Below, piece after piece: positions 14,638-49,284 of a stretch of 52,380 bases of DNA. The stretch lies in NCBI GenBank assembly GCA_001938485.1, contig MQRK01196200.1, forward strand, positions 13,200 to 65,579. Direction: 5' to 3'. The notes below the pieces were generated by a model that did no database searches, was not told the DNA's origin, and saw only the letters and a program-made list of their open reading frames with translations. The position numbers and the translations under genes are program-made. This DNA comes from Girardia tigrina (lineage: Eukaryota). Each line of letters opens with the position of its first letter. Positions within the stretch are counted from its first letter, which is position 1.

Positions 14638-14880
14638 ATCGGAGAGACAAATCTTCATCTCAAAAGCCGGATAGTGAGCACTCCCAAATGAGTCGATCGA
14701 GTAAGGTTCTTGATAATTGATTATTGGATAGAACCTCATCCATTTCAAAAGATAAGTTTTCTGTTCTACAAAAGGGATTTGATTCACATTACGAATGACA
14801 GTTTTGTGACACTACAACCCATCAATTAACATTCAGAATGGGCAGAGTAAGGTTATTTCAATACTTAAAATTTTTCATTA
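14638..14880 (+). mobile_element. Penelope-like GIY-YIG endonuclease remnant
   Basis: IGETNLHLKSRI-SEHSQMSRSSKVLD...DKFSVLQKGFDSHYE...QPSINIQ, homologous to the Penelope copy at 46720-46980. Confidence 0.7.
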
Positions 14881-15059
14881 AGATATTTTTTGCCATTATT
14901 ACCCAATAATACTTTAATAAATTATAATATTCATTTTTAAATGTGTGTGTAAGTGCATGTAAATAATTTTCTAACCAACATCCAATAAGAAAACAGCTTT
15001 AGTAGCATACCCATTATGCTATTATTATATATAAAAGTAATTGTGTCAAGTATTTGTGA

Positions 15060-15400
15060 CTATTCCGACATGACTGGCAACCAACTTTTACCCACTCTGA
15101 GGGTACAAATTGTCGCTTTACACGACACTGAAATCTTGAACCGTGCGATTTTCATGTGATTCAATATTAACCGCGCTGCAGTAGTCGACATTCTCCGTCT
15201 TCATCAAGCCTTCGGCGCCTTTGCCTATACGAAACACAGTGGAAGGCCGCCTATCACAAGCAAGGTGACAGATCGAGTCATTTGGGATCCTGGAAGACCG
15301 ATCCATTTGCTGGTTCCTATGAGTAATGGATATTCAAGGTCATATTGATAACTCTCAATAATTCCATCATTTTCCCTTGGCCTAGAATCAATTTTCAAAA
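15060..15400 (-). mobile_element. Possible non-LTR retrotransposon C-terminal zinc-knuckle remnant
   Basis: ECR-YCSAVNIESH...FQC across frameshifts resembles CxxC..ES..H..C; weak. Confidence 0.3.
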
Positions 15401-15589
15401 TACCCATTAATCCATAAAAGATATAGATTTTTTGCTAAATTTTCTCAAAATTTTCAAAAATCTATATTATCATCAGAGAAAATGGAAATATAAAATCAAA
15501 CAAATCGGATAGCGAAAAGCCATATCGATGTATGGCTAATCTTAATAAAAATTAAAATAGAAAGTATAAATAAAACAAGTTAATAAAAA

Positions 15590-16130
15590 GTCTAGTGACA
15601 ATTTAAGTGCAATTTCCTTATGTTATTCGGTGCCCAAATATTAAAACGTTTATATCAGTATTTTACTATGATATAAAATTAATTAATTAATCCATATGAA
15701 ATTAATAGTTGTCTATTAATTATTAAAACGTTTATATAAGTATTTGAATATGATTAATTTTTTGTGACCGAACGAAAGGATATTTTTGAAAACTTTCTTC
15801 GGCAATATTGTTCTAAATTATTGCAGGAATCGATTGGTAAATGTTTCAAGTCGCTAAGTGGTCTTGTTGCCGAAATATAGGCCAAAAACTGCATTTTTTC
15901 GAGGTTTTTTGGCTTTTCCAGGAAATCAATAAAGGAATTCCGGGAATTTTTTTGACCCACAATCATCCTCCAAACTTGCTTAACATATTTGCTTTTGGAA
16001 CTAGCCCTCGATATTGCTTCGTTGAGGAGGAGATACGACTTAAAGCTGCGGACACACATCCATCCATCCATCCACACAGAAATAACCAATTAATAATCGC
16101 AATTGTCAGTATGGAAATTGCGCTAAAAAA
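15590..16130 (-). mobile_element. DINE-1/HINE-like Helentron-associated element
   Basis: Minus strand starts TTTTT-AGCGCAATTTCC (subTIR), a short internal inverted copy AATTGCG, then a (GGAT)n microsatellite. The matching subTIR AGTGCAATTTCC is at 15606-15617. Confidence 0.55.
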
Positions 16131-18285: not shown

Positions 18286-19167
18286 TGTAAAAATACTAGA
18301 TCTGATATTCTCAGTTCGCAGTATTTTTATCTCTAATAGCAATACAAAAGAATAAAATTAATCTAACCCAATAGAGTTCTAAAGGAAATTGGGTGAGATT
18401 AATTCTTATGAAAGTCGAACTTAAATAATTAAATAAAACAGCCAAGTCAAAAAAAAACAAACAACAGATAAACTATTTTAATAAAAAAATAAAATAAATC
18501 ACATACACATACGTCATCAAAAAAAATAATGCTCGCAATACATAGCAGTAAATCCGTATTTATATCTTTAATATTGTAATCAATAATATTAATCGATTTT
18601 TAATCTTGAAAATTAATGAGTGTTTGCTTCGTCTGTCATGACTCAACCACAAGTTACTATCTCCAATTGTTTGTTATTTAACAGTCTTTTAACTTGTTNN
18701 NNNNNNNNNNNNNNNNNNNNNNNNNNNNNNNNNNNNNNNNNNNNNNNNNNNNNNNNNNNNNNNNNNNNNNNNNNNNNNNNNNNNNNNNNAAAAATCCAAC
18801 ATATTTAGAATATTTTAAGAATCTTCAAAGTAATACTCATCAAAGCTTTTTATCCATCCTGCATCCTGGTGACTATGTGGAACAACTATAACGAAAAATT
18901 TATCGTTTTGAAAATCTTTTTCCTCATAAACAATATCAGATCCTTGCTTCCACAGGCCACCATCAATATCAGCGAAATCCACGTCATCATAAAGTTTATT
19001 GATGTCTATATCGAAAACAGTAATATTCACAGACCAGTACACTCACACTGACTCCGAACAGTGGCGTCAACAATCAATACACAAATAACAAACAACAACA
19101 GGACGAATACGCAAACACAATACGCGACGCAATGTGTTTGATTTTGTGAAGTAGTGGGTACACTACA
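18286..19167. mobile_element. 882-bp TG...CA element (solo-LTR-like) with 5-bp TSD, inserted in PolB
   Basis: ATAAT (18281-85) | TGTAAAAA...CACTACA | ATAAT (19168-72). Removing it restores PolB IPFIMYNNTKYD on the minus strand. Confidence 0.8.
18605..19135 (-). pseudogene. MAN2A: Intron-less 5' fragment of Golgi alpha-mannosidase II (GH38)
   Basis: TM anchor VAYCVCVFVLLLFVICVLIV, then DIDGGLWKQG..VIVVPHSHQDAGWIKSFDEY; after the 91-N gap QVKRLLNNKQLEIVTCG*VMTDEANTH. The gap length fits the ~30 missing codons. Confidence 0.88.
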
Positions 19168-20479
19168 ATAATAAAAGGAATAAAATTAATTTTTTTGCTT
19201 TCAAATTACATTTGCTATGAGCTGCTCCCCGATATCGTCCCGTTAAATGATCAGGATCACGAACTTTATCTCCATGTTGTTTGAAATGTTTCCCACAATA
19301 GTAACAATGATTTGAGTTTCTAAAATCTCTATTATCTCTTGGCGTCATTTTCAATAATTTAGTTTCATTAAATATTTTTTTTATTTATCATTTACACTTA
19401 TTAAAAAATCAATAAATTGGTCGATTATATCTTTTCCCATAAATTCCTTATCGAAATTAGATTCAATTTCCGGTAATTCAGAATGAAAATATACTCCGCA
19501 AGCAAATGGTTTCTGTTTCATTATATATTTAGTTTTTTTCTGTATCTTGACAATCATCATCACTATTATCAAATTCTATAAAATTATTTTTATCATTTTC
19601 ATCATCAACTACAATGGTTTCTTCCCAGTGAAATTAAAAGATTCAAAATAAGAATACATCGCAAAAAGCGCTAAGAATACATCGACTCATCTGCGCGATA
19701 ATACGGTAATAATTTTAACCATTTCTTAATAAAAACCCAAAAAATTAAAAATATTATCAAATTGTTAAAAATGAATTTAAATTACCTATTATTAATTTTA
19801 TTTATATTTAATTAAATGCTTTTCTTTTCTTAAAAAAATATTAAACTTAATTTTAATTGTTAATTTAAAAGATATAAACTTATAAAATTATTATTTTTAT
19901 TATGTTCGAAAAGTCAATCTTTTTAAATTAAAAAAATACGAATTTCCATCTGGGTTGGAGAATCACCATTCTAAGTTCAACGTACTCAAATCAATATACA
20001 TTATCAATACATTCACACATTCAAACACTTTAAAATACTCCTCACAGTGCATATAGTTATATAGTGAACATTCGTTTGCTATTTCCTACAGTTTTATGAA
20101 AAACATTTTAATTTGATGAAAAATATTAATATTCATTCCCGTTTCATTTAAATTTTTCTCCTATCTTCGTAATTAATTACTTTGCCTCTTAAAGAGATAA
20201 GATGAGCGTAATAGGCCGGTGCTGGATAAGAAATACTTTTTATACATTCACAATTTTTTTCATCAATTCTTAGCCCAATACACTTCCGGTCCTTGCCACG
20301 GTACGGTAGCAATATATACGCCCCCTGGAATCAGAATCAGACAGAAAAAAAGAAAGAGCGATTCCCAAACCAATTTGATTGCCGAAAAATTAGATATTGT
20401 TGAAATAACGCAACTAATCAACTATATTTTCTTTCATCACTGTCTTTTGTAATCTCAAACAAAATTGCTAAAGGTATAT

Positions 20480-21473
20480 CATTTTCTTTTAAAGATGATA
20501 AATTGGTGCCATTTTTACGTCCTTTGATATTAAATCCTGTATAAAAGTTGTCCAAAACCCTCTTTATAGTAATGCGCAAAGCAAAGTAACTAAGCCATCG
20601 GCAGACTTATCAAATTGCGGTCAGAAGAGGTAAATTTATTGAATATAATTATTCAACTACATATCGATATCAGCGCCTGATGCAGAAGTTCCAAATCAAA
20701 CTTCGGTGGTTTTGTCACGATCTTAAGTGCAGCATGTGGGTTTGCATTATCGTGAAGCAATAAGGGAGTCGATCTGTTTACCAAACGCGGCTATTTTTCT
20801 TTGATTTTTAGCAACATATCTTCCAATTGGTTGTGGTAGATATCTGCTGGGATCGACAAACCAGGTTTCTTGAAGTCATTGATTATAACTGCGGTAGTCA
20901 ATCAAACACTCAACATCAGCTTCTTTTGATGACTTTGTGCGTTGTATTGTCTTATGGTGTTTCAATTGTGTTAACCCAGCTTGCCGAACGTTTGCAATTA
21001 TCATATTAAATCCACTTTTCATCACAGATGATGATTCTGTTCAAAAGTTATCAAATTTATATCAAGAAAGTATCACTAAGCAAGTATTCAAACGCTTTTA
21101 TTTCTGATTTTCATTCAACTCATGCAGAATCCATATTTATCCAAGTTTTTCACATTGCAAATTTGAACCAAGTTATTCAATATTGTTTTTGTTGTAACAC
21201 CAAATATTAGCGATAAATAATGAGTACTTTGTTATATATTCGACTCCATGGTTAATTTCAGTTCGTTCTTGTCTAAACTCAATACTGGGCAACCCAGAGA
21301 CTCATTATTGAGGTTAAAATTAACTTTCACGATTTTCCCGAACCGATTTGAGACTGTCTACTGTTTAGTAGTATTTTATCCAAATACACTATTGGTTTTC
21401 GCATGGTTTCTGATACTGAGGTTCCACACAGAAACTCGTACTTCATAATAATTCGAATTTCAGCCTCTTTCAT
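20480..21473 (-). mobile_element. Degenerate mariner transposase (cecropia/Dtmar1-like)
   Basis: MKEAEIRIIMKYEF, ICDEKWI*YDN.KRS, PRLVNRSTPLLLHDNANPH; many stops and frameshifts. Confidence 0.85.
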
Positions 21474-22523
21474 TTTTTAAAATACTGATTACTAAATTAA
21501 GTTATTAATAATTTTAATTAAGTTTTTTATTAATGTTTTCAATAGCCAATATTTTGTGAAATCATCTTGTAGAAATATTAAGTTCTAAAGAGACAGTAAA
21601 AATGTCCTATCAAGAATTTATAGATTTTCGCCTTGCAAATCTTTATTTAAATGGCCTCAACAAACTGTCGATCAAATAGGAAAAGTGTGTCGAGAATATG
21701 AGTAAATTGTATATGATATAAATGGTATAAATTACGTTTGTTAGGAATTGGCGGATTTAAAACATTTTTGAATATTTGAAAATTAAAATATATCTAAAAT
21801 ATTTAAAATCAGAATTTTATTCAGAAGAATTTTTATAATTAAAACATATTTTCTAAATAATTTTTTTAGAATAAAAAGTTGTTTCGTCATTCAAATTAAA
21901 TTAAAGAATAACTCGAAAATTTAAAAACGGAATAAAATCAAATAACTTAACTCTAAAATTAATATGATATTTAAACGAATAACGAAAGTAAAATATTTTG
22001 TTCAGAAGATTTTCAAATGATGATTAAAATAAGATAGGTTAGTAAAATATTAGGATTTTAATTTTATGAGAGTCATTAATAAAGTCGCAAATTTATAATA
22101 TTAAAATTTGTAATAAATAACGTATAAATTTTATAATTTAATTAAAATTTAAATATTGATATTTATATTTACCAATTTTGATAACTGGTTTATGCAAAAT
22201 AAGAAAACATAGTTCCTCATAAATTTGTTTGAAAAATCGTTAATTGTTATAGAAATAAATATTTTGTATTATGAACCAACAACATTAAAATATGCTAAAT
22301 TTAAGTAATATTACATAGTAGTATACGAATGAAATAATTATAAAATTTTGTAAAATTTTTATTTGTCACAAACGAAACAATCGCTGTTGAAAGACTCTAT
22401 TGAAATTTTAAACAAATAAATGAATTTGAAAATATAAAACTTTTCATTTAATTGTAACTTAATTTGCTTTTTGAAGAACTTTAAGAAACAACCGTAATAA
22501 ATAGTTTTTTATTTTAGATTCAA

Positions 22524-22980
22524 ATGCTTACAATAATACAAATATTCATTCTCTATTCAAATGTCCAACTGCATGTCCAACTGTTGTTCAGGAATATGCC
22601 ATCAAACCAGTCATCTTATTTCGATACTAATAGATCTTCCTCTTTAGCAAATGATGGGGTTTATAGTCCAACCGGATATCTTGAAATTACTAATTGTACT
22701 GCTACTATGGGTGACTCTGTGAACTACTGGCTCGTAAATCTAAAAAACCAGTGTATATTAAAATATATAGTAATATACAATAGAAATGATGAATCTGAGA
22801 CTAATATAGTTTCTACAAAAGTAAAAGTCATAAGCCAAAATGGTAATTCGACTGTTGTAGGACAAATTGAAACAGTCGAATCAGTTTATAACATCAGCTG
22901 CAACGATGTCCCGGGACAATATGTAAAAATAGAGTTTGAAAATAAATTCCTCTCTCTCTGTGAAGTGGATGTTTTTGGGG
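22524..22980 (+). CDS. F-type lectin (fucolectin/FTP) domain exon
   Basis: QSS..SSLANDG..CTAT..YWLVNL..IYNRND..C..GQYVKI..LSLCEVDVFG. Polypyrimidine-AG just upstream and a GT donor at 22981. Other exons were not identified. Confidence 0.7.
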
Positions 22981-23759
22981 GTAATATTTCATATTTATTC
23001 GAACCTCAATTAATATATTTATATAATAATAAAATATTATTTGCTTTCATTTTATTAAAAAATACAAACACATTACCAAGTGAATTAAATAATAAAGATA
23101 AAACATTTACAAACGTGAGTAAAGAACATATGAACGTTGTTTCTTTATAATTCATCAATGACCTTTGAGAAAAATTAAATAAAAGTATGTCATTTGTATA
23201 TTTATTTAGAAGAAAAGGGTCATCATAAAATATAAAATTTGATGACATTTGACATACCATTTTATGGTTAAATAATTTATTTCCTTAGTGTTAAAACATT
23301 TAAATATTATAACGAAATGGACTCAATTAATATTTGTATTTCTTAAATAACGTTTGTTATGATTTACATAATATTTTATATATTTATAATTTTGTATTAT
23401 AATTTTTGAAAGAGGCAGAGAAAGAGATTGTGATAAATAAAATGTATAATAATTTATTTTTACAACAATTTGATATTTTATTTCGAATTAAAAAAATTTT
23501 TTTTAAGAATTAAATGTTGTTTTATTTTTAAAGAGAAATAAAAAAGAAATTTCTTTTAATTATATGGTGTTCCGATCAAATGGCCGAAAAATAATTTATT
23601 TAATAAACAGTTGTTTAAATAATATGTGGGTGATGACACCTTTTTAAAAATACTATTTTAAATTTTGTAAGTTAATTTGTCTTATAATAAATGTCGGCTT
23701 TGTCATCGTTATTTTGACTTTGTTATTTTTTTAATTAATAAAAAATAACAACGTGCAAA

Positions 23760-24450
23760 ATAATGCGCCGTATTGGAGATCTCCGCGCTCCCAGCGACCG
23801 CAACAGAGCCGGAGAGACGGGTCGGGAAGCCGTCACCGACTTGTTGAGAACTCAATGCGGATCGTCGCGCCGACCGGTGGCAATCAGGCTTGAAAGGTTC
23901 ATGGCGTCCACCGAACTGGCCGATCAATTCTACCATCCGGCATCTTCCCGCACAAATAAGAGGTGCTGGCCGGCACAAGTCAGTCCGGCAGCAGGACCTT
24001 CAAATTATAATTTTATAATAAACCATTTGATCGCAGAGCGGCAGTTTGAGCACGGCAGCCACGCCCAGATTTCTTCAACTCGTATCTTGTTCTTGTTTTA
24101 GATTTTTGATTTCGGCGTAATAAATATAGCTTATTTAGATATTTAATTTTATAAGCAAACAACACACATACTGTTTCCATTGAACAAGAACCGCAGTCAA
24201 CATAATCCTCAAGAAACAAATATCTATCAGTTGATGATTTTCCACAATTTTGAAAAATTCTCATTATATCATACCAGTGACCATGAATGTCTCCACAAAT
24301 TTTAGTCGGTGCTGAAATTTCGTCAGTTTCTTTGATATGTAATCTCTGATCGGGAATTCTTACATGATTATCTTCAAATGTTTTTATAAAATAATCCAGA
24401 TTAAAAATATAGTCAAATGGTAAAGTTATCTGTTCTTTTAATTTAGACAT
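23760..24450 (-). pseudogene. PP1: Intron-less protein phosphatase 1 catalytic subunit pseudogene
   Basis: KICGDIHGHWYDIMRIF, YLFLEDYVDCG, LFAYKIKY..LLRRNQ. The GC-rich 3' half retains LPL, DLCRPAP (~DLLWSDP), GW*N-DR and QQVGDGF (~HQVVEDGY). Confidence 0.85.
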
Positions 24451-24974: not shown

Positions 24975-25455
24975 TAATATATTAAAAAATTTTAATGACT
25001 GTACAGATTTATTATAATTATTATTATTTAATAATAATTTATAATATATATCTATTTATATGTTCTCAAATTTAGAATCTTAATGATATAAAGTTAATGA
25101 TTTATGAAAAAGAACTTTGTAAAAGTGATGCTTATTCAAATGTGTATGTTTTTTAATAAATATATTTTAATCTTTCTTTTGTTATTTATTTTTATTTTCA
25201 AAATATTGTTCAATTTTGAGACTGGAATCATTCTAATTTGGTTTAAAAGAAAAACAGGAAAGGAAAAATCACTTACAGGAAGAAAATACACCAACTAAAT
25301 ATATTTTGTTTATCTATATATTAGTTTTTAATAAGAATATGTTATTCACGATTTTGCCAGATCTTGAAGGGCGAGATCCTTCGATCACAAATAAAAATTT
25401 AATGTCCGTATATTCTGAGCTTAACATACTTATATAACTTTGCGACATCAGAATT
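24975..25455 (+). repeat. ~480-bp dispersed repeat; inverted copy at 38660-39155
   Basis: For example TTATTCACGAT.TTGCCAGATCTTG...ATATAACTTTGCGACATCA and AAAGTTAATGATTTAT..AAAAGAACTTTGT.AAAGTGATGCTTATTCAAATGTG match the reverse complement of the second copy. Confidence 0.85.
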
Positions 25456-26243
25456 AGGAACGTTTAAAGAATATATTATTATTGTTCATTAGAGAGTTTG
25501 TTGCCGTTGCCACTGAGTTGCCCCAGAGAAATGCTGTAATAATAGTAACAATGGAAGTCGTGCTGGGCCAGGTTTAAAAATTTTCTATTTTTCATGTTGT
25601 TCTAAAGGAAATAAAAAAATTTTTTACTTCATTTAAATGGACAATAATCGTGTTTTTTAAATACAAAGGAAATAATAATTATCGTTTCAAAGTTTCCCAA
25701 ATCGTAAAACAAATTCGTTTCAATTTTACATTTTTCACAATATCGTGAAAATAATCATTCGTGATATTTACAACATTAACAATAATAATTTGTGAAATAA
25801 CAATTTTTAAAATTTTCGATCTTCAGAACACTAATCAATTCAGTTTTAAAATCGTATTAAATTAATAGCAATACGATTTTACAAGTGTCAAAAAGAATTT
25901 CGATTCTTGACGATTTTTTAAAAACATAAAAAGTGATATTTTGAAAATCTCTGGATGACTATAACTCACTCTGATTGGTTAATTACTTAGAACGAGTGTA
26001 TTGGCTCAATAAAATTCATCATTTGAGATGAATCTTCAGGAAACGCGGTAAAACCCCAAATCAACATATTTGGTCAATCTTCGAATTCAGACAAAGAACT
26101 CTTTCTCTGGATTTTAATTTAAATCAATTCAACTCAACTGTGAATAAATATTTTAAGTCAATAATTAATTATTTTTTCTATTTTTGAAAATTTAATTATT
26201 TTAATTCAACATATTTAACTTTTCAAACTCACAGACAAAATAT

Positions 26244-34768: not shown

Positions 34769-36001
34769 TCAGTACCTTCTGTTTTGATTCCTTTCACAAT
34801 CTCTTCTTGATCTTGATGTCGAACAATCTCTTTTATAAGTATTATTATAATGATCTTGCTGTTCTTCATAACGATAATTTGTGTTTCGCGATTGATTTCT
34901 TTCATCACATTCATTATATTTATTTGAATTTATTCTATCATAATTATATTCGTCATAATTTCTTTTGTAATCTTTATTTACTTTATTTCTATCGTAAAAA
35001 TCATCATAATTGTTTCCTCTTTCTTTTCTACTGTTATTGTATAATTCATTTTCGTATTTTCTTTCATTATAATAATAATCTTCTCTTTTTCTTCTATCAT
35101 TTCTATCATAACTTTCATTTCTATATTCTTTTGTCTCTCTTTTGTATCTGAATTCTGATGTTTTTAATTTCTCATTATCCTTATATTTATCGCTATTGTA
35201 TTCCTCATATTTGTTTATTATTTCACATTCTCTCTTTACTTTCTTTGAAGATTCTTCTAAATTTCTTTCGTTTTCTGATGTTTGTGAGTAATTTCTTTTT
35301 CGATTTTGTCTTTCAATTTGTTCGTTTTGATATTTATCTTTTACGTTATTATTATTATTGTGAAATTTATCTTTTTTGTATCTTTTGTCTTCGAAATNNN
35401 NNNNNNNNNNNNNNNNNNNNNNNNNNNNNNNNNNNNNNNNNNNNNNNNNNNNNNNNNNNNNNNNNNNNNNNNNNNNNNNNNNNNNNNNNNNNNNATGTTT
35501 TCCGTCAGATGTTGAAATATGTTTTTTATTTTCTTTTTGATATTCTTTGAATATATCTTTTTCACAAACTTTTTTATAAGTACTAAATGTATTTAGGATT
35601 TGATCAGAAGAAAATTTTTTGAGAGCTTCGCAATATTTGATCCAATTGTTTTCATTAAAACCAAAATTAAAAAATTCCGATAGATTTGCTCCAGGTTCTT
35701 CCCAAGGCTTTTTGTCTAAAGTTCGTATATCAAATTCGACTGTAGAAACATTATTGATATTTCCAGGATGATCTAGATCTATAAAATCGTTTTTTGAATA
35801 TACTTTCTGTTGGAAAGGTTTACATTTATTTTTGAAATTGGTAAACTTCTTCGTATTGACCTTCAATGGTTCTACAGATACATTTTCTGGTACCTTAGTT
35901 ATAATCTCGATGTCGTTATCGGACTCGTAATCATACAAGTCAAGTGTACTTTCCTCATTCAATCCTTCGACAATTGTTTCTATTTTATTGGAATTTGACA
36001 T
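34769..36001 (-). CDS. FIP1: Single-exon FIP1-like protein (copy B; spans an N gap)
   Basis: IDLDHPGNINNVSTVEFDIRTLDKKPWEEPGANLSEFFNFGFNENNWIKYCEALK, paralogous to 10879-11976, with an RE/D-rich tail. Frame continuity across the gap is assumed. Confidence 0.8.
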   Translation of the reverse strand: MSNSNKIETIVEGLNEESTLDLYDYESDNDIEIITKVPENVSVEPLKVNTKKFTNFKNKCKPFQQKVYSKNDFIDLDHPGNINNVSTVEFDIRTLDKKPWEEPGANLSEFFNFGFNENNWIKYCEALKKFSSDQILNTFSTYKKVCEKDIFKEYQKENKKHISTSDGKHXXXXXXXXXXXXXXXXXXXXXXXXXXXXXXXXXFEDKRYKKDKFHNNNNNVKDKYQNEQIERQNRKRNYSQTSENERNLEESSKKVKRECEIINKYEEYNSDKYKDNEKLKTSEFRYKRETKEYRNESYDRNDRRKREDYYYNERKYENELYNNSRKERGNNYDDFYDRNKVNKDYKRNYDEYNYDRINSNKYNECDERNQSRNTNYRYEEQQDHYNNTYKRDCSTSRSRRDCERNQNRRY

Positions 36002-36626
36002 TTTTCGATTTTTAACTGAAATTGTTGTATATAAAATATCTTATACAAAAAGATGTATGGGAAGATAAAATAAATTAATTATATTTATCCAACATGTAAT
36101 TGGTTAAAATTAAAATTAAAATAATATTTTAAACAATTACATATGTACTTTTTATGTCAAATATTATAAGTATGAAATATTTCTCAAATTTATGTCTACT
36201 TTTTACATTTTTGGATACTAATTTCAAAAAATCTCTTTTACTATACCTTTTTGGTCAACACGAATAGATTCACCCTTATTAATTTAAACCTATTGCTTTT
36301 TGTGAAGTGTTAGGTTGCTGTAGATTTGACCATTTTGAGGTAAGAAAGATTAGAAGGTTTTTGGATGACACTTTCTGTTTTGTAAAAAAATATATATCAT
36401 TGACAAAGAAATCTGAAACAGAAATTCTTTCATGATGAAATTAAAAAAGCACGGAAGAATAAATCCTTAACCGTATCTCAGTCAAAGTCTTACTCCGCCA
36501 CCGGTAACTTCTTGATACTGACACCAAATCTTCTTAAACGGCACATAATCTAATCTCTCTACGTCACAGTAATCAAACCTCGAGTTTCTCGTTTTCTATT
36601 AATCCACCAAATGTTCATTCACAACA

Positions 36627-37068
36627 TTGACAAAATTCTTTTTCCATAAATTCCCAAAATTTCGAATCGATTTCTCACAAAAATATCGAATTATCCAAAT
36701 GCTCATTATCATCGCAATTATTATTATTCGAATTGCCAATAAAGGCGACGGCTCAAACGAAATCGCCAAATCAAATTCATCGAATTTCTCTCACGTCAAT
36801 CAATCAATCAAATCAAATCGATCAGTCGATTATTCGTGCAACATTCTCTCGGTTGCTAATTTGCTCAAGTACGCCGAAGAAAACCAATATCGGAACGGAG
36901 TGCCGAAAATCGTCCACTTCATCTATAAGCACAGCTTCATCCCCGTCCAGTACTTCCCGCTCATTAAACGCTGCATGAAAATCAATTACGATGTGAAATT
37001 CGTTTTCTGAACCGACAGTTTAATCACAGCTCTCATCGTCAAATATTTCCCAGAATTGTTGTCATTAA
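36627..37068 (+). pseudogene. 5' fragment of a GT32 (DXD sugar-binding, OCH1-like) glycosyltransferase
   Basis: Type II TM segment (MLIIIAIIIIRI), stem, then VPKIVHFIY...IKRCMKIN..KFVF*TDS..LIVKYFPELL; truncated before the DXD motif. Confidence 0.7.
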
Positions 37069-37155
37069 AACAGAAACAAAATCTGATTATTATTGTGAAA
37101 ATAAAAACAGAAATTTTCTGCATTTTTAGAATTTGAGATATATTGACGAATTTGT

Positions 37156-37230
37156 ATGCGGCTCGTGTTCTTATTGTCGATTGTGCTGTGTTTGGGCGAG
37201 TGTGTTCGTTTTCGGAGTTTGTTTTGAGTG
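37156..37230 (+). pseudogene. Signal-peptide-like 5' fragment of an unidentified secreted protein
   Basis: MRLVFLLSIVLCLGECVRF. Confidence 0.35.
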
Positions 37231-37537
37231 GATTTTTTGATCCATGGTATAAAAATCAGAAATCACAGTGGTGAATTCTGCGGTTGGTTCAGAAAGCTTT
37301 TGATTGGCCGAATTTTTTTTGAATCGATTCGAACTTTTCTCATATTTTTCGCTTTGTTTGTTCGAACTACTTCGATTGTTTTGGAGCGAATTTTATTTTG
37401 AATTGATATCAAAAGTCACCATTAAAAAAATTGTTTGCGAGAAAAAATAAATTGTTTTGCGTGCAAGTTTGAATTTTTTTTGTTCTGTCGTGAAGAGTCG
37501 CTATTTTTTGAATATTGAATTGTTTTTGAATCAAATA

Positions 37538-37725
37538 ATGACAGATTCAGATAAATTAAATTCAGACAGCATTATTGCCCATCTCTTGGAAGTTCGTGGT
37601 TCAAGTCCGAAAAAAAATGTTCAATTGACCGAAAAGGAATAGCGGGATTTAAAAATAAAAAAATCAACCGCATTGTTTATGGATGAACTATTGAAGATCA
37701 AATTTATATGCGCCCATTATAAATC
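37538..37725 (+). pseudogene. PP1: 5' fragment of PP1 catalytic subunit (with apparent 5' UTR)
   Basis: [34 protein letters not shown] matches the PP1 N-terminus (MSDSEKLNLDSIIGRLLEV.GSRPGKNVQLTENE). Confidence 0.85.
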
Positions 37726-37732
37726 AAAAGAA

Positions 37733-38330
37733 ATGGAGATCGTGAAAAATATGAATGTCGGCAAAGCGACAGTTGAGGGATAAACGAAGATCGTTTATGA
37801 AATACCGGATTCTGACGGTTTGTGCTTGATTGTGTCCAACGGTAAAATAACCGACGGTGAATGTGTGAAGAGTTACTCGGTGGAAGGCGAAGTGGCGATT
37901 AGTACGAAAACGGCGACTCATATTTTCGAATTATTGTTTTTTGCTGGTATAAAAAGTCATTTTATTAAGCAACATTTCGATACTAGTTTTATTGCTAAAA
38001 AATTATATGATTCCAATTGAGTAGGTCACGAGAAGTATCGCTACGGGATCTTTTCTAAAGAGAAATATCGGTGTTCCCGTGGGTTATAAATTTTGTCCGG
38101 TTAAACAAGAAACGTTTTTCAAAAATGATGCCAATCACGATCCACAATGGTCTTACGAGCAGTTAGTTGCTGCTGAACTGAATATCGGGCCGAAGCAACG
38201 GATTATAACAGAGAAAGATATTCGAGTTATGTTGGAAATAACAATCGCGATTTTTAAAAATTTAGAAAAATTTTGGAGAAGTTTAAATTGTCAATTAGTA
38301 GATATAATGATTGAATGCGGCGTTGATGAC
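37733..38330 (+). pseudogene. PAICS: Intron-less 5' fragment of PAICS/ADE2 (SAICAR synthetase domain)
   Basis: VGKATVEG*TKIVYEI, AISTKTATHIFELL..AGIKSHF, GYKF...ETFFKNDANHDPQWS.EQL, LVDIMIECGVD; contains stops and a frameshift. Confidence 0.9.
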
Positions 38331-38659
38331 TGCCTTCGATTACTTGATGTTCGGTGCGATTCTTTGGATTCGCGAACGTTAGTTGTTTATTTTTCCCCTC
38401 GATCCTAAGCCTGCTCCCTAACACCGGAGTGTCGCGGCCACGCATCTGCTGCGCCCGCTCTCGCACCACATTCAATTAAGATTTTATGAAAAGAATAAAA
38501 GTCACATAATAATTTTAAGCTAAAATTATCAATAAATTATTTTTCTAAATGATATATCTTCTCAAATTTTCAATTAGTTTCTTCTTTTTATTACAACTTT
38601 GAAACCATTATATTTACACGATTCAAAAATGCGTTTCCGCACTTTTCTTTAATTGTTTG

Positions 38660-39049
38660 TAATTTTGATGTCGCAAAGTTATATAAAAATGTAAAGCTCA
38701 GAATATATGGACGTTAAATTTTCATCTGAGATCGAAGGATGTCGCTCTACAAGATCTGGCAACATCGTGAATAAGGTTTTCTTCTGGAAACCTTTGATAG
38801 ATAAAGAAATGATATTTAGTTGGTGTATTTTCTTAATGTAAGTAATTTTTTCTTTCCTGTCTTTCCTTTTAACCAAATTGTAATAATTCCAGTCCCAAAA
38901 TTGAGAAATATTGTTAAGATAAAAATAAATAACAAAAGAAAGATTAAAATATATTTATTAAAAAATATTCACATTTGAATAAGCATCACTTTCACAAAGT
39001 TCTTTTTTATAAATCATTAACTTTATATCATTTAGATTCTAAATTTGAG

Positions 39050-39090
<41 letters not shown>

Positions 39091-39155
39091 TATAAATTAT
39101 TATTAAATAATATTAATTATAATACATCTATACATTCATTAAAATTTTATTAATA
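38660..39155 (-). repeat. Inverted copy of the 24975-25455 repeat
   Basis: Reverse-complement match to 24975-25455, with an expanded (TA)n. Confidence 0.85.
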
Positions 39156-39825
39156 TGGGTTGCCTCATAAGTTTTGTCACAAAAAATACCAAAAAAACAT
39201 CATAATACAATAAAATATAAAATATTTTATCAATTGTCCACGTTATGCAAATTGGAAAAGTAGTGACCATTGTGCTCAATACATCTCAGCCAACGTCAAG
39301 GGAGGCTGCGCATCCCATTTAAGAAAAAATCACGCGGCTTCTTGTCAAACCAATGTAGAAGATCTTCGTTGATATCATTGACACAGGCACAATTATTTCC
39401 TCTAAGTGCACATTTCATTGGAGAGAATAGATAGTAGACAGATGGTAAGAGATCGGGGGAGTATGGTGAATACAAGAGCATTCAGCTTGTCCTTGGTCTT
39501 AGCAGCCGTATGTGGACGAGCATTATCGTGGAGATAATGAACATTGTGTTTTCCTCCATGGAGCAACCGTCTGCGACTCTGTTGAACGGCGATAATGAGA
39601 CGATCAAGTTGAGTACAGTAGACATCTGCATTGATTGTACCATTTGTAGGTTATACATCTAACAAGAGCAGACCTTTACTGTCCTAAAAGACGGAAGCGA
39701 GATGTTTTTGGTTTGTCAGTCTTTGTGGCGGTGTTGCAAGTGGGTTTTCATCCGATTTCCTCCATGATATATTTTTGAAAGCGCCTTCATTGTCCGAGTA
39801 TACACATATCTCATCAGTAGGATGA
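39156..39825 (-). mobile_element. Mariner 3' half (5' part lost at the junction with the LTR-element leader)
   Basis: TA-TGGGTTGCCTCATAAGTTTTGTC terminus; TINADVYCTQL, HYLHDNARPH, SPYSPDLLPSVY. Confidence 0.88.
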
Positions 39826-39874
39826 ACATGTATGTTTTAGACAAATCAATAATTAAACCCACCGGAGGTTACCC

Positions 39875-40266
39875 GTTGCCATGACAACGGTTCCGGTTAC
39901 CATAGCGACGTTCGTGGTTACCATGGATATGGTCACGGTCACCATAGCAACGGTCGTAGTAACCTTAGCAACGGTTCCGATCACCTTAGCAACGCTTTTG
40001 GTTGGTCCTTGGTACCCTAGCAACGGTGCCGGTCCACTTGAAAACGCTTCTGATTGGTTCCCGGTACCCTAGGAACGGTCGTGATAACCTTAGCAACGGT
40101 TCCCTTCACCTTAGCCTAGGCAGCAACGGTAAACAAAGTCTTAGTAACCATTGCAACGGTAACCAAGGGACATTTTTCATTAGCAACGGATACAATGATT
40201 CAAGGCTGTTATAACTATAGTAATTGTAACCATATTCATAACAACCGTGACCCTTTCCTTAGCAAC
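39875..40266. promoter_or_regulatory. Phased array of RFX X-box-like palindromes with interspersed CCAAT/Y-boxes
   Basis: GTTGCCATGACAAC (39875), GTTACCATAGCGAC (39896), GTTACCATGGATAT (39917), GTCACCATAGCAAC (39938), GTAACCTTAGCAAC (39959), ATCACCTTAGCAAC (39980), GGTACCCTAGCAAC (40011) and more; CTGATTGG at 40050-40057. Confidence 0.7.
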
Positions 40267-40505: not shown

Positions 40506-41321
40506 TAATATAATGGGTTTTATTACCACTGATTAAATAATATTACGAAATTGAATACGTAGGATTTATTTACAACACCACAATTAAAAGGGATTAATAA
40601 TCAACTTGTATACACAACAAAAAATAATCTTACAAAAATAATCGTAAATTGTTAAGATTGTAACCGTACGTCGCTACCCATAAATCGACGTAGAACTGTC
40701 AGGATAATATGCTCTTCGATCCGTCTGAAATTCGGGATAAACCGTTACAGATTTCGTTGTGATCACAAACTGTTTGTTACACCCAACAATGAATACAGAC
40801 TGTCAGGATAATAATCTCTTCGATCTGTAGTAAATTATGGATAAACTGCGTCACGATAAATTATTCAGTATAAATCAAGTATCTGAATTATTAAAGTACG
40901 GAATTCTGCATCATATATTTTTATTGAATTTTTTTAAAACTGATCTCTTAGCGATCATTGATCATTTTATTTTAAATCCATTTTCATTTTAATTCATTAT
41001 TATTTATACATGACGAATTGTTTTTTTCTTTTTTTCTTTCTCCACTACATTTTTTTCCAAAGTGATATTTTCTGGATTAATTATTTTGCCATTTTTTGGT
41101 GATAAAACAATTTCAAATTGTTAACAGCCGACATGATTGCTTTCAAACATTTCTCAAATAAAATTAAACAAAATCCATATTCAGCATGGATCTATCTAAA
41201 AAAACAAAACCCCAACAAATTAACGCATACACCTCAGATCAAACAGAATATAAACAATTTAGAAGATTTCCCGAAGGGAACGATCACGCAACAATGCATT
41301 AACTAAAATTAATATACTATA
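40506..41321 (-). repeat. LTR (inverted 5' LTR)
   Basis: Reverse complement of 45397-46131 (the right copy lacks ~100 bp); internal ~100-bp tandem duplication (CTGTCAGGATA...CTCTTCGATC). Confidence 0.9.
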
Positions 41322-41381
41322 CCTAAACATCTTAACATACAAATTTTTAAAAAAAAGAAAAAAACTTAACAACAAATTATT

Positions 41382-44300
41382 ATGACAAGTAAACAAAGAA
41401 AACCACTAAACAAATATAATTCATTTGAAGATTTATCCTCAAGCAACAACGACACTGCTTACATTAGCAATCTTGATAAATCACATTTCAAACTACCGGA
41501 ATTTTTTACGGACAAACGTCATTCACCACAACAGTGGTTAGACACATGCATTAGTATGTGTACTTTTAATGGCATCACTAATCATAAACAAATCTGTACC
41601 GCACTAATCAACAAATTAACTCCCGATATCATAATCAAAATAGGAAATGACATAAAAAAATTTTCATTTTCTAACAAACCTCTAACGCTACTACGCGAAA
41701 TATTCACTAAAATTTATCCAGTCAACCAACATGCGGTTTTAGAGGGATGTTACTACGATATCGAGTTATGGGATAGAAAACCCTCTGAATATTTAACCGA
41801 TCTAAATTGTAAAATAACAGACAAAAAAGGTGACCTCAATAACGAGTTAATATAATTCTTCTTTTATCGCATATTACCAACTCACATCAAAGACATTCTA
41901 TTAACACGGGAAGATCAGGGTATTGATTCTCTGGGAATTATAGCTGATAGATTATATGGCAATTTGCAATTTAACGTCTATACAGTATCCAACACTATCC
42001 CAACTTCAAATAAACCATCCAATGATGATAATTATAACATACTCCTAGACAAATTTAAGGAACTATTTAATGAAAATAAAAGTTTTAAAAAGGAGATTCT
42101 GGAATTAAAATCAGCTAGAGAAATCGAACTTTTCAGATCTAGTGGAGACTATGACAAAAAGACCATGTCATAAATCAGAATCTCCTAATAATAAACCAGA
42201 ATGGTGTTACTACCACAATAGATTCGGAATAGAAGCATTCCGTTGTATACAACCATGCAAATTCAAATCACGTATGCTTAACCTAAAAGGTTGTCCAGCT
42301 TAGCACCAATGGTGACTTACCTAAACGGTGTTTTCACGGTGCACCTTCTTAATTGTTCTTTTCGTTATTAGTTGACTTGGGATCAATAGTTTCAGTTCTA
42401 CCTGTTTCGCATTATAAAGAATACCGTTATGTTAATAATGTTAGACTTTATGCGGCCAATGGCTCCGAAATAAGGACATTTGGTCACAAGACTCTCAAAA
42501 TAAATCTGGGGAATAATTGGTATAGTTGAAACTTTATTATTGCTGAAATTCCCCAGGCAATATTGGTGCCGATTTTTTGTCCCATTTTGGTTTACTAATA
42601 GAATGCCAGAATCAAACTTTATTTACTAAAACTTCATCAACAAATAAGGTTCGCGACAACTCTATCGTTCTATTCAAAGATATACACTCGAATATTTTAA
42701 ACACCATATTACCTAGAACAAAAATTACAAATTATTATCGCTCACAAAAATATTGTAATCGGATCAGCTACTAACCAAAAACAATCGAATCAGTTACGAA
42801 CACAAACGAAACATTCGATGAAATGAATAAAGTGGGTTTATTGACAGAAAAATATAAAACAGATTTAGATAAAAAATACCATGGTACATCCAACGGCGAC
42901 CCAACACCTACAATCAATGAATGCACACCAAAACAATCGAATAAGAATATAGTGTCCGATCCAACCATACACAAACTATTAACTCTACAAGAATCACCTT
43001 GCTAATAAGAAACATACGTCCAGCCCGATACTACGACACATCACATAATAACTAATGGATATACTATCCATGAAAAGGTACGACAACTTTCTCCAGAAAT
43101 TTATCTGCAGCAAAAGAAATATTTAGTAATATGTTAGAACAAGGGATCATACAACCATCATCATCCAATTGGTCCTCCGCACTTCTAATGAAGAGAAAAA
43201 AAGATAATACTTGGAGATGTTGTGGAGATTATCGGTGGTTAAATGCAATAACAGTCAAGGACGAATATCCCTTACCGTTATTAAAGGACGCGACTACCAG
43301 ATTATCAAATGCCGCATATTTTAGCAAGATCGACCTTGAAAAGGCATACCATCAAATACCGGTGGCGGAGGATGATATTCATAAAACAGCTATTATCACG
43401 CCATTCGGTCTGTTCGAGTATAATCGTATGCCGTTCGGTTTGAAAAATGCGGCATCAACATTCCAAAGACATATGGATCAAATATTTTCGAAATATCCAT
43501 TCGTGGTCAGCTATTTAGACGATTCCTCTAAGTGCACATTTCATTGGGAGTATAAACCAAGAAGACCATTTGAAACATGTGGAAACCATATTGGACATAC
43601 TAAAAACAAATGAATTAAAAATCAACATTGAAAAGTGCGAGTTCGTTAAAAAAGATGTAAATTTTTTATATCATAATATCAGAAAAGGAAAAATAGCTCA
43701 AATTAAAAACAACAGGGATGTAATATCAGCCATTACTCCTCCGCAGACAGTACGAGACATAAGAAGATTCTGTGGAATGGTAAACTTTACCACCAGTTCA
43801 TTCTACATTGTTCGGAACTTCTGTCTCCGATCAATGAAACCAGAAGAAACAAGCAAAAATAGAGTGGACCAACGAATTGAACATTATTTTTGAAAACATT
43901 AAACACGAACTTAACAAAATCACTGAACTGTCAATGGTACTAAATAATACCATATTAACGCTCACTACTGACGCCTCGAATATTACTATAGGTGCCTCGT
44001 TATGTCAAGTGATTGACTATATTGATTCTCCGATCTCTTTCTTTTCTCAAAAATTAAAATCAACTGAAACGAGGTATTCCACTTTTGATCGTGAGTTATT
44101 AGAGATTTTTCGGGCTGTTAAACACTATCAGTACTTAATAGAGCGTAGGAGTTTCAATATACGTACAGATCATAAGCCACTGGTAAGGATATTCGATATA
44201 GAAAACCCAAGTCCAGGTAGTTACACCAAATATGTTTCTTGTCTCAATTTGACTGTAAAATACAATATTTGGCATTGAAAAGTAATATCGTAGCAGATTG

Positions 44301-45349
44301 TTTATCACGTTCTTACATCAATGAGATAAAATATCTACCTATATTTGACATAGAATCTTTAAAAGGCAATCAGGAATAGGTACGTTTAGAATGTTTTAAC
44401 ACCTTATTAAAATTAAAAAAATAAAAGACATATGGTTTGATCAGTCAATAGACGGTTACAATAGACCATTAATTCCAGAGAACCCCAGAGACAAATGCAT
44501 AAAAGCCATACACGAATTGGGACACTATGGGAACCAAGTTACATACAAAATGCTCTATCTACAAATGTGTTTGCAAAGATGCGAAAAGATATACAAAAGT
44601 TTGTACAAAAGTGTATTGCATGTAACAGAAACAAAAATAATACAAAAAGATTTCCACATTGAAGAGATAAACTAGAATAGTTGCATGTTGATATTACTGG
44701 TCCACTTCCCCCGAACAAAAATTTCAGGTACTTAGTCTGTATAATAGACTTTAAGACTAATTGGTTTGAGGTTTTATAAACAAAAGAAATATCATCTGAC
44801 AATATCGTTCAAGTAATTGAGACTCATTGGATCTGTCGATATGGACCATCGAAGATTATCGTGACAGATCAAGGTAGACAATTTGAGTCTTCACTGTTCA
44901 AAACACTGTGTACTAAGTACAATATAAAGAAGATTCGTACAACTCTTTATAATCCTCAATCGAATGGTAAAATTGAAATCTTCCATAGATATTTTAAACA
45001 AACACTGAGGACTAAATGTAACAATTCAAATTGGTACGATAACATCTACGAGACTTGTTTGGCATTAAGAATCAAACTATATTCTATTACCAACAAATCA
45101 CCACTAGGAAACCTCAAAGGAAAAACGTTAAATTGGAATCTGTTTCGATCAATCAGTTACAACAAAGACAATCTCGTATCGAATAAGAATAAGTATACGG
45201 AGGCTTATGTTAGAAACTCGTTAGCTAGAAATTTCGAAGATAAGTTTGTTGGACCGTATCCCGTAAAATGTGTACAGAATAACACAGTAACTGTTGACAT
45301 AAAGCAGAAAAATAAAACAATCAATTTACGCAATGCCAAATTAAGATAA
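41382..45349 (+). mobile_element. Ty3/gypsy CsRn1/Kabuki-type gag-pol, degenerate
   Basis: Gag FKLPEFF and CHCC motif WCYYHNRFGIEAFRCIQPC (~42202-42260); protease LLVDLGS; RT IDLEKAYHQIP, MPFGL, YLDD; RNase H TTDAS, RELL; integrase TDQGRQFES, QSNGKIE, FVGPY. Confidence 0.93.
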
Positions 45350-45396
45350 TATCATATTCTTTTACACAAGCTCCGCTTTTATTGGGTGGGGGCTAT

Positions 45397-46131
45397 TGTA
45401 ATATATTAATTTTAGTTAATGCATTGTTGCGTGATCGTTCCCTTCGTGAATTCTTCTAATTTGTTTGTATTCTGTTTGATCTGAGGTGTGTGCGTTAATT
45501 TGTTGGGGTTTTGTTTTTTTTAGATAGATCCATGCTGAATATGGATTTTGTTTAATTTTATTTGAGAAATGTTTGAAAGCAATCATGTCGGCTGTTAACA
45601 ATTTGAAATTGTTTTATCACCAAAAAATGGCAAAATAATTAATCCAGAAAATATCACTTTGGAAAAAAATGTAGTGGAGAAAGAAAAAAAGAAAAAAACA
45701 ATTCGTCATGTATGAATTAAAATAATGAATTAAAATGAAAATGGATTTAAAATAAAATGATCAATGATCGCTAAGCGATCAGTTTTAAAAAAATTCAATA
45801 AAAATATATGATACAGAATTCCGTACTTTAATAATTCAGATACTTGATTTATACTGAATAATTTATCGTGACGCAGTTTATCCATAATTTATTACAGATC
45901 GAAGAGAATATTATCCTGACAGTCTGTATTCATTGTTGGTTGTAACAAACAGTTTGTGATCACAACGAAATCTGTAACGGTTTATCCCGAATTTCCGACA
46001 GATCGAAGAGTATATTATCCTGACAGTTCGAAGTTGATTTATGGGTAGCGACGTACGGTTACAATCTTAACAATTTACGATTATTTTTGCAAGATTATTT
46101 AAATGTAGTGGTAATAAAACCCATTATAATA
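45397..46131 (+). repeat. 3' LTR preceded by PPT (GGGTGGGGG, 45384-45392)
   Basis: TGTAATATA start right after the purine tract; matches 40506-41321 inverted. Confidence 0.9.
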
Positions 46132-46269
46132 AATATCATGTGTTTGATGCACATTTTGATTCTCTATCTGAATATGCAATTAGAAATTTTTTTGTGTACG
46201 GAGACCAGTTTTATTTAACATTTAGCTGAAAAAATTAAAAAGTAACTTATCATAATGCTTATATAATAA

Positions 46270-47890: not shown

Positions 47891-48294
47891 AGATAATAAT
47901 AAACTTAGTAGTTATCTTTTTGAATAAGAATACGAAAGAGCCGCATGAAAGAAACTTAAATTTTATGATGTATCATGGGGTTATTGAAGAATCGTAATCC
48001 AAACAATATTTTTTCATTGTTCAAATTGCATAAAGAACATGTTCAATAATATTAAATGTAATTATAAAGTTTAGGAATAGACGTTTTTCCAAGTTGGACA
48101 GTCCAAGTTCTTTTTAAATATATTAAAGAAATATAATATATTCAATATTATAAAAAATTTAAAAGTTAGAAATTTTATTTTGAAAGATTTTGATTCTGTT
48201 AATTTTTATTGGATAATTAAACAAAAATAAATTTATCCGTTTTCCCATTTACCCTTTCATGATGTTTTAATTATACATTTGATAGATAAAAAAC

Positions 48295-49284
48295 ATGAAT
48301 GAATATTGGGAGAATCTAAAGAGTAAATTAACTAAAGCAGTCGAATTACAAAAGAAAAAGATCAACAATGCGAAAGAAAAAACAGTAAATAGTAACAAAA
48401 ATCTAAAAAGAAAACATTCACAATCGATCACAATATCGAATCAAAGTTCATGCAGCAACAATAAAGAAAATAAAAGTAAAAATGATCGCGATCCTTCATT
48501 CGATATACCAAATAAGAAGATAAAACTTGATAACAACTCAGATGGTCTAAAAATTATATTAAAGAGAAACAATTTGGACAAAAATTCTTGGTTTATTTAT
48601 TCATCATCAAAACTCGAAAATAATACTCAAATTAGTCCTCATTCTTCAAACAACAAAGAGATCATCGAACAGAAAATCGATCTTAAAACAAGCCTCTCTC
48701 AGATCCAAAAACACAATTTATCAAAAAACGAAATACCGACAACCTCTTCACAAGAACCCTATCAAACTATAAATGAATCTATAATTAAATGTCCAATTTG
48801 TTTAGAATCGATTTCCAAAGACATCGCAATTATACAAAATTGTAAACACGAATTCTGTGAGACTTGTATTAAAGAATGGCTCGCTCATCAAACCACATGT
48901 CCTATGGATAGAACTATTCCAACACAAGTTATCATTTATAAAGACTTGAATAAAAAGATAACTAAAGAAATTATTAAAAATCCAAAACAATTGAAACAAA
49001 CAATTGATGAATATGAAGAAACGAATGTTTTATATCTGAATGATGAAGATTATATAAATGCAGAAATAGAAATTGAAGAAGATCCTAATGATGAAGAATA
49101 CGTTGTTGAAAGTGAAGAAGAAAGTGAAGTTGAAAGTGGAGATGAAAGTGGAGATGAAAGCGAAGTGGAGATTGTAATTCCAACTCGAAAAAGCAAAAGA
49201 AATCAAATAAATCACAATTTGAACGAGAACGTCCGTGCTTGTAGATTTAATTTAAGAAGTCGTTCTAATATTAATTATTTATAA
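48295..49284 (+). CDS. Single-exon RING-finger protein (PHRF1/SCAF11-like C3HC3D RING) with a basic N-terminus and acidic tail
   Basis: Open 329 aa; CPICLESI....IIQNCKHEFCETCIKEW....TTCPMDR; NLS-like LKRKH and NKKIK; AATAAA at ~49327. Confidence 0.75.
   Translation: MNEYWENLKSKLTKAVELQKKKINNAKEKTVNSNKNLKRKHSQSITISNQSSCSNNKENKSKNDRDPSFDIPNKKIKLDNNSDGLKIILKRNNLDKNSWFIYSSSKLENNTQISPHSSNNKEIIEQKIDLKTSLSQIQKHNLSKNEIPTTSSQEPYQTINESIIKCPICLESISKDIAIIQNCKHEFCETCIKEWLAHQTTCPMDRTIPTQVIIYKDLNKKITKEIIKNPKQLKQTIDEYEETNVLYLNDEDYINAEIEIEEDPNDEEYVVESEEESEVESGDESGDESEVEIVIPTRKSKRNQINHNLNENVRACRFNLRSRSNINYL

What the first reader, a model, noticed from the sequence alone, without database searches (positions are those of the whole stretch)
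36600..38470. Same-strand concatemer of 5'-end fragments of unrelated host mRNAs (GT32 > secreted protein > PP1 > PAICS)
Seen: within 1.9 kb, 3-4 unrelated genes lie on the + strand. Each is represented by its N-terminal part, has no recognisable intron, is 3'-truncated without a poly(A), and abuts the next (the PP1 remnant runs into the PAICS ATG). Known: ordinary LINE retrocopies keep the 3' end and poly(A) and lose the 5' end, the reverse of this; R2-type RTs jump from the 5' end of one template to the 3' end of another RNA; Helitrons and LTR elements also capture fragments. Inference: serial RT template jumping over 5' cleavage or decay fragments of mRNAs has recorded a transcript sample in DNA. 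Inside a TE-dense cluster it could yield gene-targeting small RNAs.
Basis: partly seen in the sequence, partly recalled or inferred. Interest (0 to 1): 0.78.

Follow-up and report, generated by a model that had tools for sequence, protein, structure and literature searches.

The report
Repeat carrying broken host gene starts
This is one copy of a repeated, transposon-like element in an animal genome that has collected broken front ends of at least four unrelated host genes, facing both ways, much as 'pack' transposons do in plants and bats.

Summary
The chain is real, but it is not a same-strand string of mature mRNA 5' ends. GT32, PP1 and PAICS pieces on + are confirmed. Instead, a minus-strand gene is split by the GT32 piece and appears to keep an intron donor. 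The PAICS mRNA has a spliced-leader-like 5' end that the window lacks. A DNA run holds the chain in tens of copies, roughly 10 at the left to 70 at the right against a floor depth near 100. Of its contigs, 25 leave the window at about 38461-38468 into unlike flanks, and an inverted repeat marks that end. Best reading: a decayed copy of a non-autonomous pack-type family that captured 5' gene pieces serially from DNA or unspliced RNA and was then amplified. It works like bat Helitrons or Penelope pseudo-LTR capture, but the carrier is not identified and intron loss could not be tested. One join (PP1 to PAICS) sits at the leader site, so an RNA or splicing step stays possible.

The parts
36333..36493 (-). 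Probable start of an intron of gene X (GTAAGA donor at 36493-36488). The left limit is set only by a depth step and is approximate.
   Evidence: X3 and X6 contigs leave the window at 36493; X1 summed depth steps from about 1040 to 3810 in bin 36333-36451. for the donor; GTAAG occurs at 0.055% of positions in the window.
36494..36546 (-). Exon piece of an unidentified, high-depth gene X
   Evidence: tables 2, 5, 7 (depth 636 in X3, 853 in X6). Strand inferred from the donor and the ATG.
36539..37063 (+). GT32 glycosyltransferase 5' region plus codons 1-121 (ATG 36699), one stop, inserted in or replacing the middle of gene X; 8-nt overlaps with X at both ends
   Evidence: record 18 (1292 nt, 7% other letters, 89 nt further upstream and 672 further downstream)
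37056..37146 (-). Gene X 5' UTR and signal-peptide-like start (ATG at 37123)
   Evidence: both RNA contigs end at about 37146, by bin arithmetic plus 19 loose letters; translation. Signal peptide judged by eye.
37147..37529 (.). Unidentified T/G-rich spacer: upstream, outron or UTR DNA between head-to-head gene X and PP1, or a minus-strand piece.
   Evidence: No Pfam hit above its cut-off; no usable Atlas hit for the minus frame; that 73-aa frame is reached by 174 of 2000 shuffles; RNA depth 0-15
37530..37696 (+). PP1 5' piece: about 37534-37633 matches a high-depth mRNA; 37634-37696 is a more diverged, in-frame PP1-like continuation
   Evidence: anchored score reached by 0-43 of 5000 random stretches for each of 5 homologues.
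37698..38329 (+). PAICS from the position where the mRNA's leader-like letters end to about codon 199 (ATG 37733); two stops and one frameshift
   Evidence: records 12, 15, 16, 19, 24 (5-14% other letters)
38330..38474 (.). GC-rich (54%) terminal segment of the family, with an imperfect inverted repeat of about 20 bp (38340-38359 / 38461-38480); fixed outer end
   Evidence: 1 of 1000 shuffles; table 7 (14 and 11 X1 contigs leave at 38461 and 38468, flank agreement 0.58 and 0.52)
34772..36040 (-). Adjacent single-ORF FIP1-like gene, itself about 10-fold repeated in X1; possibly cargo of a longer form of the unit
   Evidence: Fip1 E 5.5e-17; record 1 (depth 1090, 1 difference in 377). Linkage to the chain in other copies is inferred from depth only.

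Best explanation
The stretch is one decayed copy of a non-autonomous, pack-type mobile family. Steps: (1) shown: pieces of at least four unrelated host genes lie between about 36333 and a fixed end at about 38474, and the chain exists in tens of copies. (2) Inferred: pieces were gained one after another from genomic DNA or unspliced RNA by template switching at short overlaps, giving both orientations, an intron remnant and a bias to gene 5' ends. (3) Inferred: after each gain the element was copied onward from its fixed right end, so the pieces nearest that end are the most numerous. The carrier I think single most likely is a rolling-circle (Helitron-like) element. I give about 0.8 to 'amplified cargo-bearing family' and about 0.35-0.4 to a Helitron-like carrier.
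For: Copy number: X1 summed depth is 265-272 just right of the unit, 1000-1500 over FIP1, 3300-5000 over GT32 and 8400-24000 over PP1-PAICS; most single contigs listed lie at 66-223. One fixed end: 25 contigs leave at 38461/38468. Deletion variants: joints 37768>38003, 37803>38423, 37887>38069. Subfamily pattern: at 37770, 37774, 37825, 37842 and 37865 nearly all X3 depth has another letter, but only 48, 54, 41, 28 and 7% of X1 depth does (5 sites picked from the 40 of 369 rows shown). DNA or pre-mRNA template: donor at 36493, minus-strand piece, no leader, 8-nt overlaps. [quoted passage not shown]
Against: Helitron end signals are not met in this copy. There is no CTRR after the hairpin; the hairpin folds no better than shuffles (z -0.19); no TC start was located; and no partner for the inverted repeat was found elsewhere in the window. 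No RepHel family appeared among the window ORFs scanned (not every stretch was scanned). The PP1/PAICS join within a few bases of the leader site is unexpected for a DNA break. Three of the four parents are very high-depth RNAs, which hints at RNA templates. The tool warns that summed contig depth is not a copy number, and only 24 of 360 loose-end rows were shown.
Confidence: 0.4

Rival explanations
1. Penelope-like retroelement capture: the 145-bp end is a pseudo-LTR with palindromic ends. Cargo is copied from unspliced or antisense RNA, which gives a fixed 3' end, variable 5' truncation, head-to-head inversion and intron retention.
For: PMC3846280 (passages): pLTRs of about 180-220 bp with palindromes capture host DNA, keep introns and form head-to-head inverted structures, and a related clade exists in flatworms. 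Here there is one fixed end, depth falling leftwards, and a head-to-head switch between 37146 and 37530.
Against: No second pLTR or TSD in the window. No Penelope ORF recognised. Rfam finds no ribozyme (0 matches at E<=1).
Confidence: 0.22
2. Pack-TIR (MULE-, Foldback- or Ginger-like DNA transposon) with long terminal inverted repeats; cargo gained by gap filling or fork stalling and template switching.
For: Two exit classes of similar size (14 and 11 contigs) whose printed consensus share TATCA could be left and right TIR variants. Microhomology joins and multi-copy Pack-TIRs are described in animals (PMC8277862, passages).
Against: No inverted copy of the end in the 52-kb window. A steady one-sided depth gradient is not expected when both ends are needed.
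Confidence: 0.12
3. LTR-mediated retroposition or TRIM: mRNA pieces copied by RT template switching inside particles, with 38345-38474 as a short TG..CA LTR.
For: Partial, poly(A)-less, multi-gene chimeras with microsimilar joins are known in animals (PMC5131818, passages). The segment begins TG and ends CA, and has a short inverted repeat. The in-frame switch between two PP1-like sequences resembles copy choice.
Against: No purine tract or primer-binding-like site next to the segment and no second LTR. No multi-contig exit at its left edge among the 6 X1 rows shown. An antisense piece and an intron donor are not expected.
Confidence: 0.12
4. One reading: a LINE/R2-type RT jumped serially over 5' fragments of mature mRNAs.
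For: GT32, PP1 and PAICS are on +, start near mRNA 5' ends and lack poly(A). A fixed 3' end and leftward decline fit target-primed copying. Double template jumps are described (PMC2104539, abstract).
Against: Minus-strand gene X with an intron donor; leader absent before PAICS; GT32 piece starts inside its transcript and splits gene X; no clear tail or TSD.
Confidence: 0.1
5. No mobile carrier: an old rearranged block amplified by segmental or tandem duplication.
For: Neighbouring FIP1 is also repeated, and the window holds other duplicated blocks.
Against: 25 contigs leave at one end into unlike flanks.
Confidence: 0.04

Closest known systems
Gene-capturing Helitrons of vesper bats (HelibatN3, N217.1, N22; PMC4224331)
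   Same: 5'-biased host pieces with a partial intron, sequential capture of unrelated genes, either orientation, amplification as non-autonomous families
   Different: No TC...hairpin-CTRR ends shown here; at least four genes in 2.1 kb; host appears to be a trans-splicing invertebrate
Penelope pseudo-LTR capture of host DNA in Adineta vaga (PMC3846280)
   Same: Short palindromic terminal unit, intron retention, head-to-head arrangement
   Different: There the cargo is a single gene or spacer between pLTRs with TSDs and at low copy; here it is a multi-gene chain with only one end seen
LTR-mediated chimeric retrocopies (PMC5131818)
   Same: Both-end-truncated, poly(A)-less pieces of two or more genes, short overlaps at joins, later re-amplification
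   Different: No flanking LTR element recognised; antisense piece and intron donor present
Pack-TIRs such as Ssk-FB4 (PMC8277862) and plant Pack-MULEs (recalled)
   Same: DNA-level capture with microhomology; multi-copy families
   Different: Second TIR and TSD not found
Tripartite LINE chimeras (PMC2104539)
   Same: Direct fusion of copies of different transcripts
   Different: Those are built from a non-coding RNA, SINE and LINE and flanked by direct repeats; here mixed strands and no LINE part recognised

Membership tests
Helitron (HLE1) | 3' hairpin followed by CTRR | tested here: not met
   Weak hairpin 38434-38458, z -0.19; no CTRR at the end of this copy. The copy is decayed, and the printed exit consensus reads CTGT/CTAT.
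Helitron (HLE1) | 5' TC end, insertion between A and T, no TSD | tested here: inconclusive
   Left end not located; only a depth step at 36333-36451
Helitron2/Helentron (HLE2, HINE) | 11-18 bp subterminal inverted repeats at both ends plus 3' stem-loop, T-T target | tested here: inconclusive
   An inverted pair about 100 bp apart exists at one end; no partner elsewhere in the window; DINE-1's inner repeat lies only 3-22 bp from the subTIR
Helitron, any | Autonomous RepHel partner sharing the ends | not testable with these tools
   No genome held
Penelope-like element | Pseudo-LTRs (direct or inverted) and variable TSD | tested here: inconclusive
   One palindromic terminal unit only
Penelope-like element | Hammerhead ribozyme motifs near the 3' end (recalled feature) | tested here: inconclusive
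   0 Rfam matches; minimal or decayed motifs can be missed
LTR retrocopy / TRIM | Two direct LTRs, PBS, PPT, 4-6 bp TSD | tested here: not met
   One TG..CA segment, no second copy, no PBS or PPT beside it
LTR retrocopy / LINE chimera | Introns of parent genes removed | not testable with these tools
   Parent genes not available. PAICS is colinear with mRNA for 632 nt, but gene X appears to keep a donor.
LINE/R2 template-jump chimera | All pieces sense and copied to their 5' ends | tested here: not met
   Minus-strand gene X; leader absent; GT32 piece starts 89 nt inside its contig
LINE/R2 template-jump chimera | LINE 3' end with poly(A) or simple-repeat tail and TSD | tested here: inconclusive
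   No tail in this copy; one exit consensus is A-rich but agreement is only 0.52
Pack-TIR / Pack-MULE | TIRs at both ends and fixed-length TSD | tested here: not met
   No inverted partner within the window; the left end of this copy may be lost

The most novel reading that the evidence does not exclude
A retroelement family (Penelope-like or undescribed) in a trans-splicing animal that repeatedly captures nascent, unspliced 5' ends of abundant transcripts. It joins some of them by splicing onto spliced-leader acceptor sites and amplifies the growing chain, leaving a layered record of pre-mRNA 5' ends that is itself transcribed and could yield sense and antisense small RNAs against housekeeping genes.
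Probability: 0.15. Interest if true: 0.78.

Novelty: new variant of a known kind. Interest (0 to 1): 0.47.

Why it matters
Multi-gene pack elements are well known in plants and bats. I saw no report of one in flatworms in the listings, which cover an incomplete library. A family with tens of copies at different cargo lengths would let one order the captures and test DNA against RNA capture directly, using introns and the spliced leader as markers. Low-depth variant contigs in two RNA-labelled runs suggest copies are transcribed, so housekeeping genes could be exposed to small RNAs. Such copies can also mislead gene counts and read mapping for PP1 and PAICS.

Tried and rejected
No genome was held, so other copies, empty sites and parent genes could not be read. 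Cluster look-up for 10 proteins could not be made, and a PAICS tree script returned nothing and was not repeated, so the host is not placed on a tree. Horizontal transfer from another species: considered because run X8 (same label as X1) holds only 6 short matches under 90%. Rejected as unnecessary, since X6 also holds a FIP1 match at about 92% and low-depth variant copies; X8's nature is unknown, so its blank is no evidence. GT32 nested in an intron of gene X: rejected, because the GT32 contig does not match gene X upstream of 36539. 37634-37697 as the PAICS outron: rejected, because it is PP1-like in frame. A minus-strand gene in 37147-37421: not supported. Operon: rejected, because the upstream genes are truncated. 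tRNA/SINE or ribozyme at the end: Rfam 0 matches; ARAGORN was not run. Terminal motif in viral contigs: 0. The metagenome scan gave 2 loci, both of mRNA size, so no intron positions. The planarian leader sequence was not found in passages or supplements searched. Earlier findings: none returned.

Full report
Setting. The window is AT-rich animal DNA dense in mobile elements: Gypsy-type RT/integrase ORFs, mariner/Tc1, hAT-like and DNA polymerase B remnants. No genome is held. The closest PAICS proteins are two unnamed metatranscriptome sequences at 55-69% identity to the fragment. They share only 61% or less with every other listed hit. The host is probably a free-living flatworm. This is an inference from leader-like mRNA ends that finish in ATG (flatworm leaders end in ATG: PMC12582326, passages) and from a recalled likeness to planarian leaders, which I could not retrieve from a paper.

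Observation. GT32, PP1 and PAICS are real, decayed, 3'-truncated pieces on +. PAICS covers residues 5-199 of 419 without a large insertion. I laid 4 of the 15 listed runs on 35500-39050. X3 and X6, whose RNA label is a guess by the tool, hold high-depth contigs that match PP1 to 37633 and PAICS to 38329 and then continue in frame as those genes, so the truncations are in the window and not in the parents. Their PAICS and GT32 contigs differ from the window by 5-14%.

Corrections. The + strand 'secreted protein' rests on a private change: at 37172 the other copies read G (X1 depth 2558 of 2601; X6 17.6 of 17.6), a stop at codon 6. A different gene is present. One contig in each RNA run (depth 636 and 853) matches both 36493-36546 and 37056-37127/46, with the GT32 piece in between. 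On the minus strand it begins about 23 nt before an ATG and a hydrophobic start. At its other end the window continues with GTAAGA exactly where both RNAs diverge. I read this as an exon followed by a retained intron start. GTAAG occurs at 0.055% of positions, but I examined about eight junctions with a few bases of slack, so this is good evidence, not proof; the parent locus was not seen. The two RNA runs agree at 29 of 30 loose letters there and are not fully independent. The GT32 contig (1292 nt) has 89 letters upstream that the window lacks, and GT32 overlaps gene X by 8 nt at both ends.

The leader. Both PAICS contigs align from 37698 and carry 15 and 22 extra letters that end in ATG plus one G (table 7). 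The window lacks them. What precedes 37698 is an in-frame, more diverged PP1-like stretch: its anchored score is reached by 4, 12, 1, 43 and 0 of 5000 random stretches for five homologues, though it matches the expressed PP1 mRNA at only 14 of 30 letters (hand count). A join within a few bases of the leader site is, however, what splicing onto that acceptor would give, which counts for an RNA step. The letters could also be plain UTR divergence between species. The spacer 37147-37529 is unidentified. It may be upstream DNA between head-to-head gene X and PP1.

A family. X1 (DNA by the tool's guess; 37% of sampled words) gave 963 contigs. Summed depth is about 270 right of the unit, 1000-1500 over FIP1, 2200-7000 over gene X, GT32 and the spacer, 8400-24000 over PP1-PAICS, and 7700 over the end. 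Most single contigs listed lie at 66-223. Taking about 100 as one copy and the lowest per-site depths shown gives roughly 10, 20-30, 45-55, 60-85 and 75 copies from left to right. These are rough, because the tool warns that summed depth is no copy number. Fourteen and eleven contigs leave the window at 38461 and 38468 into unlike AT-rich flanks; no comparable left exit is among the 6 X1 rows shown (24 of 360 rows in all). Internal deletion variants exist. X3 and X6 hold low-depth variants with their own joints, which suggests transcribed copies or DNA carry-over. The last 145 bp are 54% GC with an inverted repeat of about 20 bp (1 of 1000 shuffles) and no partner in the window.

Mechanism. 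Shown: multi-gene cargo, many copies, one shared end. Inferred: mixed orientation with an intron remnant, serial capture by switching at short overlaps from DNA or unspliced RNA, then amplification anchored at the right end. Bat Helitrons show 5'-biased, intron-bearing, sequential, either-strand capture (PMC4224331, passages), so it works like them. Their end signals (PMC11417382, PMC4067079, passages) are not met in this decayed copy, so I do not file it as a Helitron. Penelope pseudo-LTR capture keeps introns and makes head-to-head inversions (PMC3846280, passages) and is the strongest rival. LTR-mediated chimeras (PMC5131818, passages), Pack-TIRs (PMC8277862, passages) and LINE template jumps (PMC2104539, abstract) each fit part of the anatomy. 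PMC2831318 (abstract) describes short mRNA pseudogenes with poly(A) and TSDs, which this lacks.

Novelty. Gene-fragment capture and amplification is a known kind. A chain of four or more genes in a trans-splicing animal, with a join at a leader site, did not appear in the search listings. I read listings only for most hits, and the library lacks most subscription journals. Verdict: real, more complex than first described, a new variant of pack-type elements with an unidentified carrier; interest 0.47.

Noticed in passing
window 40622-46138: Gypsy-type gag/RT/RNaseH/integrase ORFs (41370-45346, +) flanked by about 700-bp repeats in INVERTED orientation (96.7%). The right one follows a purine tract and starts TGTAA like a normal 3' LTR; the left one is flipped and no primer-binding site is evident. 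Real inversion, composite element or mis-scaffolding.
   Followed up: partly
window 10876-11973 (+) and 34772-36040 (-): Two single-ORF FIP1-like genes, 70-81% identical, both frames open, dN/dS about 0.6 by a simple count. The second has about 10 near-identical copies in X1. An amplified intronless FIP1 family.
   Followed up: partly
window 24016-24450 (-): Second, unrelated PP1-like remnant (catalytic part, about 50% to PP1, an internal gap and catalytic motifs altered), followed by an unidentified GC-rich stretch 23742-24010
   Followed up: partly
window 38645-39156 and 24979-25471: A 500-bp block present twice in inverted orientation, 85% identical: right after the chain's end here and upstream of the other PP1 remnant there; low depth in X1
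   Followed up: no
window 48286-49281 (+): Single-ORF 332-aa RING-finger protein with an acidic tail
   Followed up: no
window 22518-23147 (+): F5/8 type C (galactose-binding) domain ORF
   Followed up: no
window 16216-18210 (-): Broken type B DNA polymerase, Maverick/Polinton-like
   Followed up: no
window 39867-40115: 21/42/52-bp tandem repeat array between a mariner remnant and the Gypsy element
   Followed up: no
window 9584-9733: Near-perfect 68-bp inverted repeat with a 14-bp spacer, MITE-like
   Followed up: no
window 36550-36569 (+): Branch-point-like CTAAT, pyrimidine run and CAG in the GT32 upstream region; the X6 contig covers it unspliced
   Followed up: partly
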